DNA of 39,660 nt from an uncultured archaeon (lineage in GTDB: Archaea; Asgardarchaeota; Lokiarchaeia; Sigyniarchaeales; SOKP01): NCBI GenBank assembly GCA_964525635.1, contig CAZGJX010000027.1:1-39660 (forward strand), read 5' to 3'. How positions within the stretch are numbered: the first letter of the stretch is position 1; the number at the start of each line of letters is the position of its first letter. The notes under the pieces are model-generated. The model saw only the letters and a program-made list of their open reading frames with translations, did no database searches and was not told where the DNA came from. The position numbers were made by a program, and so were the translations under genes. Positions 27,105 to 36,143 of this stretch are shown here, piece after piece.

Positions 27105-27641
27105 TTAATCGAGATGAGAATTTTTGATCATAAGTTGGGTGATTCCTTCAAATGATTTTTCTACATTTTGTCCTGTCTTTGAGCTGCACTCTATAAATCC
27201 ACTTAATCCCCGAGATTTAGCAATACTAATACCCTCTTCAGGTGAGATTTCTCTTTGATCAACTAAATCAGCTTTACCTCCTACCATTAGGATTGGAAAC
27301 AATTTATCTGGCGTAATCTCTTTTTTAATAACCATTAACCAGTCATCAATGTGAGCCAAGGATGAGAAATTAGTTATATCATACATAAAAAGTGCACCAG
27401 CAGCTCCCCTTACATAAGTTGGCAAAAGGAACCTAAAGCGTTCTTCTCCTCCAAAATCCCAGATTTGTAATTTAACTTTTTTGGAATTTACTTCGAGGCT
27501 TTTCACATTAAAATCAACACCTATCGTCATAGTACTGTCTGATTTAAATAAATTGGTTAAAAATCGATGGGTAAGGGTAGTTTTACCTGTTCCTGCATCT
27601 CCAAAGATTACCAGTTTGAATGTTGCATCATAAATTGGGAT
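27105..27641 (-). CDS. Rab-like small GTPase (probable non-ATG start, ATC at 27641)
   Basis: The frame extends upstream of the ORF-track ATG and includes the P-loop: (I)PIYDATFKLVIFGDAGTGKTT...TIGVDF...WDFGGEERF...GKAD...CSSK. AGGTGA SD-like element at 27648-27653. Confidence 0.88.
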   Translation of the reverse strand: MPIYDATFKLVIFGDAGTGKTTLTHRFLTNLFKSDSTMTIGVDFNVKSLEVNSKKVKLQIWDFGGEERFRFLLPTYVRGAAGALFMYDITNFSSLAHIDDWLMVIKKEITPDKLFPILMVGGKADLVDQREISPEEGISIAKSRGLSGFIECSSKTGQNVEKSFEGITQLMIKNSHLD

Positions 27642-33566: not shown

Positions 33567-34136
33567 ATGAAAAAAAAAGAAGAAAAAAAGGGATTTGTAT
33601 TTAAAATAACTGTCATAGGAGATGGTGCTGTGGGAAAGACTTCTCTTATCAAAAAGTATACAAAGGGATCTTTCCAAAAAGATTATATCAAAACACTTGG
33701 AGCACAATTTTCAAAATATGATGAAGATCTCGAGGGTGAGAGTTGTAGACTCTTCTTCTGGGACATTTTATTAAAGAATATCTCTTTAAAATGTTAAGCT
33801 GGACAAGATGAGTGGAACTTCATGCGCCCTACTTTTTACAAAGGAAGCAAAGCTGCTATAATCGTGTTTTCTCATACTGATAATCAAAGTTATATTAATA
33901 TCCCAAAATGGTATGAAGATATCAAAAAATACTGTGGAGATATACCTATTGTATTATTCGGAAATAAACTTGATATAGTCAATGAAAAAGACTTAGATGA
34001 TAATAAAGTTAATAATTTAGTTGAAGAGAACGGATTCCTCAAATATTATAAAACATCAGCTAAAAGTGGTGCAGGAGTTTATGAAGGATTCCAAGCAATT
34101 ATAAAAGAATTATATTTTGAATATAAAGATAAATAA
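33567..34136 (+). CDS. Rab-like small GTPase, two exons (33567-33767 + 33798-34136; 179 aa when joined)
   Basis: G1 GDGAVGKT, G2 TLG, G3 WDI|AGQ split by a 30-nt insert, G4 GNKLD, G5 TSAK; otherwise intact. Confidence 0.88.
33768..33797 (+). other. Putative 30-nt bulge-helix-bulge (BHB) mRNA intron
   Basis: TCTGG-GACA-[TT|T]-TATTAAAGA-ATATC-TCTTTAAAA-TGTT-[AA|G]-CTGGA. Cutting after the second nucleotide of each bulge restores GAC ATT GCT GGA CAA (DIAGQ). Confidence 0.72.
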
Positions 34137-34149
34137 AAAAGTATTCGGA

Positions 34150-34452
34150 ATGATTGATGGGAATTTTAAACAAGATTATCCAAAAATCTTGTTTTTTTCG
34201 TCGCAACATTGTATGCCTTGTAAACCTGTAGAAGAAAAATTAAAAAGAATAAACATTTCTATGTTTGGTAAAAGGTTACAAATCGATAAAATTAATATAG
34301 ATATACAAGAAAATCGAGAGCTTATAAAAGAATATAAAATAACTTCAGTTCCAACATTAATTATTGGAGAAAGAAAATTAATGGTTAATATAGAAGAAGA
34401 AGATATTATTGATTGTATTTTGTATGCTTTTATAGCATCTGTAAAAATTTAA
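34150..34452 (+). CDS. Thioredoxin-fold protein (CMPC)
   Basis: FFSSQHCMPC active site; ITSVPTLII cis-Pro motif. Confidence 0.85.
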   Translation: MIDGNFKQDYPKILFFSSQHCMPCKPVEEKLKRINISMFGKRLQIDKINIDIQENRELIKEYKITSVPTLIIGERKLMVNIEEEDIIDCILYAFIASVKI

Positions 34453-34533: not shown

Positions 34534-35013
34534 ATGGATCGATCCCTATTGTCAAAAATATTAGCCCAAATGAAAACACATCTTAAGGAAGGAAAGTCGA
34601 TTGGTGATTTAAAATCTGGAGCACTTTTCGCATTGGGTCAGCAGTTAGAAGCAATTTTTTACTATTTAGGTCATGAATTAGGATCACTTATTAAATCAAA
34701 AGACACAATTCCAGCCGATAAGATACCTGAAACATTAAAAGAAATAATCTCTGAATATAATATTGGAGAAGTTGAAATCACCAACACAACAGATGAGATT
34801 GTTCAATTAAAATTGAGAAATCATTCATCAACAAAAGATCTAATAGATAAAAAAATCAAGACAAAAACAAATTTCTGTTCTTTTGAAGCGGGATTATTAG
34901 CAGGTGCTGTAGAAAGTATGAGTGATATTCATTGTTTTGCCCAAGAAATAAGTTGTAGTTTACAAACAGGTGAAAATAATTGTGAATTTATGATTGTATT
35001 TCAAAAAGAATAA
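34534..35013 (+). CDS. V4R domain protein
   Basis: YYLGHELG, IGEVEI, CSFEAGLLAGAVE, EISC..TGENNCEF; AAGGAG SD. Confidence 0.85.
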   Translation: MDRSLLSKILAQMKTHLKEGKSIGDLKSGALFALGQQLEAIFYYLGHELGSLIKSKDTIPADKIPETLKEIISEYNIGEVEITNTTDEIVQLKLRNHSSTKDLIDKKIKTKTNFCSFEAGLLAGAVESMSDIHCFAQEISCSLQTGENNCEFMIVFQKE

Positions 35014-35612: not shown

Positions 35613-36143
35613 TTATTTATCTTCTGTAATATTATCTAAAATTGATTTTATTAATTTTTCAAAAGCTTCTTCAACATTATTTCCTGTTTTAGCTGATGTT
35701 AGCATAAAATTCATTCTATGCTCCTTTGCATATTTTCTCCCTTCTTTTTCTGAAATTTTAATTTTTTCTTCTAAATCAGCTTTATTACTTATTAAGAAAA
35801 GAGGTTTATCACCTCTAGTATCTTTAAAACTTTGAATCCAATCATCTAGTTTTTTAAAAGTTTTTTCATTTGTCATATCATAAATTACCAATGCACCACT
35901 TGCTCCTTCTAAATATAGCTTACGAAGTGATTTAAAGCTTTCTTGACCTCCTAGATCCCATATTTGAGCAGATACGCCCCCATATTCCTTTATCTTTAAA
36001 TCTTTCTTTAGTAAATTCACTCCTAAGGTGCTTTTATATGAGTTCCGAAAAGTATCTTGAACAAATCTGTAAACTAGCGAAGTTTTACCAACTGCGGCTT
36101 CGCCAAGTAAGCATAGTTTAACAATATAATTTGGTTCTACCAT
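35613..36143 (-). CDS. Rab-like small GTPase
   Basis: GEAAVGKT, STLGVNL, WDLGGQE, NKAD, TSAKTG; uninterrupted. Confidence 0.93.
   Translation of the reverse strand: MVEPNYIVKLCLLGEAAVGKTSLVYRFVQDTFRNSYKSTLGVNLLKKDLKIKEYGGVSAQIWDLGGQESFKSLRKLYLEGASGALVIYDMTNEKTFKKLDDWIQSFKDTRGDKPLFLISNKADLEEKIKISEKEGRKYAKEHRMNFMLTSAKTGNNVEEAFEKLIKSILDNITEDK

What the first reader, a model, noticed from the sequence alone, without database searches (positions are those of the whole stretch)
33757..33803. Candidate BHB (tRNA-endonuclease-type) mRNA intron inside the G3 box of an Asgard Rab-like GTPase
Seen: the two ORF-track fragments are one gene with a 30-nt in-frame insert (33768-33797, ending in TAA) between WDI and AGQ. 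The RNA can fold as outer helix UCUGG(33757-61)/CUGGA(33799-803), central 4-bp helix GACA(33762-65)/UGUU(33792-95), 3-nt bulges UUU(33766-68) and AAG(33796-98) on opposite strands, and inner stem UUAAAGA/UCUUUAA with a 5-nt loop. Established: archaeal EndA cleaves BHB motifs after the second nucleotide of each bulge and RtcB ligates the exons; the well-documented archaeal mRNA intron of this type is in crenarchaeal cbf5. Applying that rule removes exactly these 30 nt and regenerates WDIAGQ. No other lesion is visible in the gene. Inference: a splicing-dependent on/off switch on a eukaryotic-signature gene, conceptually like the short non-spliceosomal XBP1/HAC1 introns. Caveat: the U-run also allows a 6-bp helix plus UUA bulge, so the 5' bulge register is not unique.
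Basis: partly seen in the sequence, partly recalled or inferred. Interest (0 to 1): 0.93.

Follow-up and report, generated by a model that had tools for sequence, protein, structure and literature searches.

The report
tRNA-type mini-intron in Asgard Rab-like gene
A 30-base insert with a stop codon splits a Rab-like GTPase gene of a Loki-type Asgard archaeon; comparison with about 130 relatives indicates that the tRNA-splicing enzymes cut it out of the mRNA, which the papers I could search document inside only one archaeal coding gene (cbf5).

Summary
The insert (33768-33797, ending in TAA) is real. It is present in four other runs, and absent from three congeners and from WDIAGQ in 119 of 120 homologues. 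Cutting by the EndA rule restores a 179-aa Rab-like protein under purifying selection. The motif alone is weak evidence in a 27% GC genome; the comparisons carry the case. (1) Orthologues in five other genomes have 29-31-nt inserts at three other sites, all with a 4/4 central helix at the homology-defined boundary; one site shows compensatory changes. (2) A motif-free census finds 8 such inserts in this genome (6 canonical, 0.18 expected), including in single-copy rpoA', rpoA'', aIF5B and aIF2-gamma. (3) An (alpha-beta)2 EndA and RtcB are encoded. Splicing is inferred, not shown: no RNA run was available, and the strict BHB fold lies 3 kcal/mol above the best fold. The 'on/off switch' idea has no support: this intron is private to one species, and a sister intron comes and goes with short recombination tracts. 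Best reading: a tolerated cbf5-type mRNA intron, one of many in Promethearchaeota. This scan noted the class before on other DNA, including in Rab G3 boxes.

The parts
33567..33767 (+). Exon 1 of the Rab-like GTPase gene (Met1 to Ile67; G1 P-loop GDGAVGKT, switch I, start of G3 WDI)
   Evidence: Pfam Ras/Roc on read-through
33768..33797 (+). 30-nt BHB-type intron, in frame (phase 0), ending in TAA (33795-97)
   Evidence: present in all DNA assemblies seen
33798..34136 (+). Exon 2 (Ala68 to stop; AGQ of G3, G4 NKLD, G5 SAK)
33757..33761 (+). Outer helix, 5' arm (exon 1), pairs with 33799-33803
33762..33765 (+). Central 4-bp helix, 5' arm GACA (exon 1)
33766..33768 (+). 5' bulge UUU; predicted cut between 33767 and 33768 (register can slip in free RNA)
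33769..33791 (+). Inner hairpin of the intron: 9-bp stem with one A.A mismatch, 5-nt loop 33778-82
33792..33795 (+). Central helix, 3' arm UGUU (intron)
33796..33798 (+). 3' bulge AAG; predicted cut between 33797 and 33798
33799..33803 (+). Outer helix, 3' arm (exon 2)
34150..34452 (+). Thioredoxin-fold gene (CMPC), conserved downstream neighbour, uninterrupted
   Evidence: 47 of 48 orthologous loci
34534..35013 (+). V4R/DUF2507-like gene, conserved downstream neighbour, uninterrupted
   Evidence: 44 of 48 loci; both Pfam scores below cut-off

Best explanation
The 30 nt are an archaeal endonuclease-type (BHB) intron in an mRNA. The end of exon 1 pairs with the end of the intron (4 bp), flanked by two 3-nt bulges. 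The (alpha-beta)2 EndA cuts after the second base of each bulge and RtcB joins the exons, giving ...GAC AUU GCU GGA CAA... and a 179-aa Rab-like GTPase. Unspliced RNA stops at TAA after 76 aa and yields no GTPase. It is one of at least 8 such introns in this genome, gained in this lineage and tolerated because a constitutive tRNA-splicing system removes it, rather than a dedicated switch. Shown: insert, boundaries by homology, motif, enzymes encoded, recurrence, covariation at a sister site, essential host genes. Inferred: transcription, cleavage, ligation, efficiency, and lack of regulation.
For: Boundary fixed by homology coincides with the EndA rule. Three further independent insert sites in the same orthologue group (G058/G071/G072/G104 at KIT^, G015 at KITV^ and EF^N), each with a 4/4 central helix at a register that restores the protein; background rate 2.7% for the helix and 0.8% for the canonical motif. 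At the shared site, 44/44 cells pair and three inner-stem pairs change on both sides; the introns differ by up to 9 of 30 nt while all five genes stay otherwise intact. Motif-free census: 8 distinct disruptive 29-40-nt inserts, 6 canonical (0.18 expected), while 50 in-frame open inserts show no excess (2 vs 3.7). Hosts include rpoA', rpoA'' and aIF5B with no second copy, and aIF2-gamma with only distant paralogues. EndA catalytic and structural subunits and RtcB are present; the catalytic subunit aligns to PDB 3p1z/3ajv, including the loop region and the Y/H/K triad. Asgard EndA is reported as (alpha-beta)2 with the L1 loop for relaxed substrates (PMC5829648). dN/dS is at most about 0.11 on both exons versus congeners.
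Against: No RNA-level evidence here. The strict BHB conformer is 3.1 kcal/mol above the MFE, and the 5' bulge tends to slip into a longer helix or an internal loop. A de novo BHB-plus-ORF scan is not enriched over shifted controls (1177 vs 1105/1156), so the motif alone proves little. This particular intron is seen in one species only, so it has no covariation of its own. dN/dS over long branches cannot exclude a recent knock-out, and the genome has over 40 Ras-like paralogues, so this gene is not itself demonstrably essential.
Confidence: 0.87

Rival explanations
1. The class of introns is real, but this copy is poorly spliced or dead: a recent insertion or template-switch hairpin that has knocked out a dispensable GTPase.
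For: Private to one species. The insert plus exon end forms a near-perfect 12-bp palindrome that out-competes the BHB register. Many paralogues.
Against: Same length and anatomy as the inserts in essential genes. Several of those, and four of the six orthologous introns, also score 2.5-4.6 kcal above their MFE, so the energy gap is not special. Identical across all assemblies, with no second lesion. Boundaries fall exactly on the EndA rule (5e-5 by shuffling).
Confidence: 0.07
2. It is a regulated splicing switch (XBP1/HAC1-like), in which conditions or EndA availability set Rab-like GTPase output; the slippery 5' bulge acts as the tuning element.
For: The stop codon makes expression strictly splicing-dependent. 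The fold is metastable. Small and translational GTPases are frequent hosts.
Against: No conserved position: 4 different sites in 6 of about 130 genomes. Near-identical sister genes lack the site-A intron. Housekeeping genes carry the same inserts. No dedicated sensor nuclease is implicated.
Confidence: 0.08
3. Translational recoding (stop read-through or ribosomal bypass) or DNA-level excision removes the effect of the insert.
For: The insert is in frame and has a hairpin, as bypass elements do (own knowledge).
Against: Read-through would leave 10 extra residues inside the invariant DxxG. There are no matched take-off and landing codons (ATT vs TAA). Sister inserts of 29, 31, 32 and 40 nt shift the frame. 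No target-site duplication or terminal repeat, only one nucleotide register, no second copy in the genome, and no excised DNA form in four runs (contigs drop rare variants).
Confidence: 0.03
4. Assembly artefact.
For: Hairpin in AT-rich DNA of a metagenome-assembled genome.
Against: Present in Logan contigs of four other runs and in JGI assemblies.
Confidence: 0.01

Closest known systems
cbf5 pre-mRNA intron of Sulfolobales/Desulfurococcales (Watanabe 2002; Yoshinari 2006; Yokobori 2009, PMC2738675)
   Same: Short BHB-bounded insert inside a catalytic motif of a coding sequence; cuts between the 2nd and 3rd bulge residues; hetero-oligomeric EndA; lineage-specific gain and loss.
   Different: cbf5 is one gene at one conserved position, with splicing shown by cDNA.
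Non-canonical tRNA introns of Asgard archaea (bioRxiv 10.64898/2026.10.13.758758)
   Same: Repeated independent gains; sit at canonical BHB boundaries; arrival route unknown. Inserts of similar build fit tRNA-Ala and tRNA-Trp of this genome (heuristic fit).
   Different: That study covers tRNA genes only; its main text has no occurrence of 'mRNA' or 'cbf5'.
Haloferax volcanii HVO_1309 5' UTR BHB intron (Schwarz 2020, PMC7714728)
   Same: An mRNA cut by the splicing endonuclease; excised intron seen as a circle.
   Different: 46 nt, in the UTR, does not interrupt a reading frame.
XBP1/HAC1 IRE1-dependent splicing (PMC13149111)
   Same: Short non-spliceosomal mRNA intron removed by nuclease plus ligase; opens a reading frame.
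   Different: Cut at two stem-loops by a stress-regulated nuclease, position conserved (own knowledge). Here it is a BHB substrate of a housekeeping enzyme, with no evidence of regulation.
Rab family GTPases (best PDB match Rab23, E 1.8e-35)
   Same: G1-G5 motifs, WDxAGQ, Ras/Roc Pfam hits.
   Different: 179 aa, no C-terminal Cys tail; similarity to Rab23 is not evidence of orthology.

Membership tests
BHB (EndA/RtcB) pre-mRNA intron, cbf5 type | 4-bp central helix between exon-1 end and intron end, with a 3-nt bulge 3' of it on each strand | tested here: met
   GACA/UGUU, bulges UUU and AAG, outer 5/5, inner 8/9
BHB (EndA/RtcB) pre-mRNA intron, cbf5 type | Cut after the 2nd base of each bulge restores the conserved reading frame | tested here: met
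   Restores WDIAGQ, found in 119 of 120 homologues
BHB (EndA/RtcB) pre-mRNA intron, cbf5 type | The BHB conformer is populated in the transcript | tested here: inconclusive
   3.1 kcal/mol above MFE, P about 0.002 without protein; 3' bulge and outer helix are in the MFE, 5' bulge slips
BHB (EndA/RtcB) pre-mRNA intron, cbf5 type | Genome encodes a hetero-oligomeric EndA and RtcB | tested here: met
   Two PF01974 genes (one with Y/H/K triad, one without) and one RtcB, all uninterrupted over the match
BHB (EndA/RtcB) pre-mRNA intron, cbf5 type | Structure conserved while sequence varies among orthologous introns | tested here: inconclusive
   Met at sister site A of the same gene, 4 sequences only; no second copy of this intron found at this site
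BHB (EndA/RtcB) pre-mRNA intron, cbf5 type | Spliced mRNA or circular intron exists; EndA cuts in vitro | not testable with these tools
   No RNA holder listed
XBP1/HAC1-type regulated splicing switch | Intron position conserved across the lineage | tested here: not met
   Private to one species; three other sites elsewhere; most orthologues have none
XBP1/HAC1-type regulated splicing switch | Condition-dependent splicing by a sensor nuclease | not testable with these tools
   Needs RNA from several conditions
MITE / IS footprint | Terminal inverted repeats, target-site duplication, several copies | tested here: not met
   Single register, no duplication, no second copy in 4.45 Mb
Translational bypass element (T4 gene 60 / byps) | Matched take-off and landing codons | tested here: not met
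   ATT before, TAA at the landing position
Group I / group II intron or other Rfam RNA | Ribozyme core, Rfam match | tested here: not met
   30 nt; no Rfam hit in the window

The most novel reading that the evidence does not exclude
Promethearchaeota run routine, multi-gene mRNA splicing with the tRNA endonuclease and RtcB. Their roughly 30-nt introns invade conserved motifs of many genes (RNA polymerase, translation factors, eukaryote-like small GTPases), arise at new sites repeatedly, and come and go together with 50-60-nt exon tracts by recombination. This is a protein-only, pre-spliceosomal intron system in the closest prokaryotic relatives of eukaryotes. In the boldest version, weakly folded copies such as this one also tune expression.
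Probability: 0.75. Interest if true: 0.85.

Novelty: new variant of a known kind. Interest (0 to 1): 0.7.

Why it matters
The papers I could search confirm one archaeal coding-sequence intron (cbf5) and one UTR intron; the 2009 paper says others were only predicted. If Asgard archaea splice many mRNAs, including those of essential genes and of eukaryotic-signature GTPases, three things follow. Intron-containing mRNA, and RtcB-type mRNA ligation, may predate the spliceosome in the eukaryote host lineage. Annotation of Asgard genomes is systematically wrong at these genes: this one is called as two fragments of 76 and 104 aa, so 'missing' or 'split' genes need re-reading. And there is a ready set of 47-nt substrates for a simple EndA assay. 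This single intron adds a clean test case (four independent sites in one gene) and a hint on how such introns are gained and lost.

Tried and rejected
No RNA holder listed for the locus; this says nothing about expression. No database protein equals the spliced product (best 87%), and the JGI pattern scan for this site with 0-30 inserted bases gave only two intronless relatives. The near-identical intronless sisters of the site-A genes (L225-L227) were checked as possible spliced transcripts and rejected: 89-94% identity and different junction codons. The de novo BHB scan was uninformative on its own. The sigma-70 promoter scan does not suit archaea and was ignored. Rfam gave nothing. Low-scoring family genomes checked for hidden splits showed only paralogues, except G015. 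The in-frame stops in G018 and G052 fall outside the aligned coding region and were not counted (G018's is upstream of the start). Best Rab-like matches in 12 of 16 genomes of other families had no stop inside. Literature searches found no report of Asgard coding-sequence introns, but most subscription journals are not searched.

Full report
Observation. The window is contig C27 of a 4.45-Mb, 26.8% GC genome whose congeners are filed as Promethearchaeota, i.e. Loki-type Asgard archaea. Two ORFs, 33567-33797 (76 aa) and 33822-34136 (104 aa), are halves of one Ras/Roc-family gene. Removing 33768-33797 gives an open 179-aa protein with WDIAGQ; among removals of 24-39 nt only the 30-nt removals at 33767 or 33768 do so. 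The insert is bridged by contigs of four further runs with no joint and is identical in four more assemblies, so it is real and fixed in the samples seen.

How much the motif is worth alone. Little. The 47-mer folds with z about -2. The strict BHB form is 3.1 kcal/mol above the MFE, which runs the central helix on to 9 bp. A genome-wide scan for BHB motifs that join two ORFs gives 1177 hits against 1105 and 1156 for shifted controls, although this site ranks among the top few. What matters is that an insert defined by homology lands on the motif: 0.8% at random in this genome, and 5e-5 for helix plus inner stem when the insert is shuffled between its real flanks.

Orthologues. Three congeners (82-84% identical) and nearly all of 131 family genomes with a match have an uninterrupted gene, and none of the listed matches has an insert at this site. 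But five other genomes have inserts elsewhere in the same gene. G058, G071, G072 and G104 share a 30-nt stop-containing insert after the second base of the Thr codon in KITVIG (site A). G015 has two: 31 nt two bases further on (site B) and 29 nt in EFNF (site D). In every case a register that restores the protein has a 4/4 central helix with 3-nt bulges, and all five spliced products keep G1, G3 and G5. The four site-A introns pair in 44 of 44 cells, with three inner-stem pairs changed on both sides (only four related sequences, one divergent row carries the double changes). Their host genes differ mainly at synonymous sites (37-62 synonymous-only vs 18-31 non-synonymous codons), so old stop-containing inserts sit in genes still under selection. 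The Rab-thioredoxin-V4R order is kept in most loci (47 and 44 of 48).

Genome census. I compared proteins from 2 Mb of G067 and 0.23 Mb of G001 with this genome, without using the motif (1252 queries with an orthologue). There are ten disruptive rows: one is an antisense duplicate, one a 75-nt non-match, and eight are distinct 29-40-nt inserts. Six meet the canonical rule (0.18 expected), and the other two have 3 of 4 central pairs. Fifty in-frame open inserts show no excess. The hosts are RNA polymerase A' and A'', aIF5B, aIF2-gamma, one of two EF-2 paralogues, a 120-aa protein that I could not name, and two Ras-like GTPases including this one. A', A'' and aIF5B have no second copy in the assembly (100% complete by markers, but a MAG). 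A cell cannot live with these genes broken, and some inserts shift the frame, so RNA-level removal is the economical explanation for the class.

Enzymes. The genome has two EndA genes and RtcB. One EndA subunit has the catalytic Tyr/His/Lys and aligns over the N-terminal loop region to PDB 3p1z/3ajv (E 4e-37); the other lacks the triad. PMC5829648 reports Asgard EndA as (alpha-beta)2 with the L1 loop linked to relaxed substrates, which would suit the slippery 5' bulge (inference).

Mechanism. Shown: the insert, its boundaries, the motif, the enzymes, recurrence and essential hosts. Inferred: the pre-mRNA presents the BHB, probably captured by EndA; cuts fall at 33767/68 and 33797/98; RtcB ligates; the 30-mer leaves as a linear or circular RNA. 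Unspliced message gives a 76-aa fragment lacking the G3 glycine, G4 and G5. dN/dS on both exons versus congeners is at most about 0.11, and private changes are conservative, but such long branches cannot exclude a recent knock-out of this one gene.

Switch or passenger. The patchy distribution argues for a passenger. On the gene tree the site-A genes form a clade (97) with intronless members nested in it. Intronless sisters that are 89-94% identical overall differ from their intron-bearing partners mainly in a 50-60-nt tract around the site (8-10 of 36 vs 3-8% elsewhere, p 1e-6 to 4e-3; window chosen after seeing the data). So presence and absence change with a piece of foreign exon, as expected for short-tract recombination and not for loss through the gene's own cDNA. 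The direction is not settled. No such tract is visible around the present intron, where congeners are too distant.

Comparison and novelty. It works like the cbf5 intron and meets every defining feature that can be tested on DNA, except that the fold in free RNA is inconclusive. Splicing itself was not testable. PMC2738675 says other protein-gene introns were predicted but unconfirmed; PMC7714728 adds one UTR intron and names cbf5 as the only other mRNA case; the 2026 Asgard preprint treats tRNAs only. I class this as a new variant of a known kind. The scan's own notes report the same class in many Asgard genomes and in this one; these are unchecked leads, and my score rests on the tests above. 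Confidence in the intron reading is 0.87, in a regulated switch 0.08; interest 0.7.

Noticed in passing
G000 C151:5048-5079(+), C142:4695-4667(-), C19:11080-11109(+): Three translational GTPases (EF-2 paralogue, aIF2-gamma, aIF5B) are interrupted at the same place in G1 (HG^K), each after CATGG(A/T)A and before AGAC. This suggests a target-site preference or spread between paralogues, although the intron sequences differ.
   Followed up: partly
G000 C71:17580-17619 and C71:20882-20911: BHB-type inserts of 40 and 30 nt break single-copy rpoA' and rpoA''.
   Followed up: partly
G000 C62:3369-3399(+): A second Ras-like GTPase gene has a 31-nt frameshifting BHB insert just before its G3 motif (GIFDFGGQ).
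   Followed up: partly
G000 C109:3095-3066(-): 30-nt insert with a perfect 9-bp inner stem in a 120-aa conserved protein with no NCBIfam match; host not identified.
   Followed up: no
L008 (G015 C141), about 2670-2900: The orthologous Rab-like gene carries two frameshifting BHB introns (31 and 29 nt).
   Followed up: yes
L051-L054 versus L225-L227: Presence or absence of the site-A intron goes with a 50-60-nt tract of divergent synonymous codons in otherwise 89-94% identical genes.
   Followed up: partly
G067 first 2 Mb (L119-L218): Only two 30-nt disruptive inserts were found in this genome (one canonical), fewer than in G000, so intron load varies between genera.
   Followed up: no
G000 C54:19098-26273: Array of 22 tRNA genes, nearly all intron-free, in two opposed blocks; looks like a mobile element or foreign contig.
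   Followed up: no
window 35613-36143(-) and 27105-27623(-): Two more Ras-like GTPase genes in the window, both aligning without a stop; the first has an orthologue next to the Rab-Trx-V4R module in most relatives.
   Followed up: no
P0133 (NCBI/Logan/ENA): A site-A gene is annotated as a 168-aa protein starting inside the intron, an example of how these introns hide in annotation.
   Followed up: no
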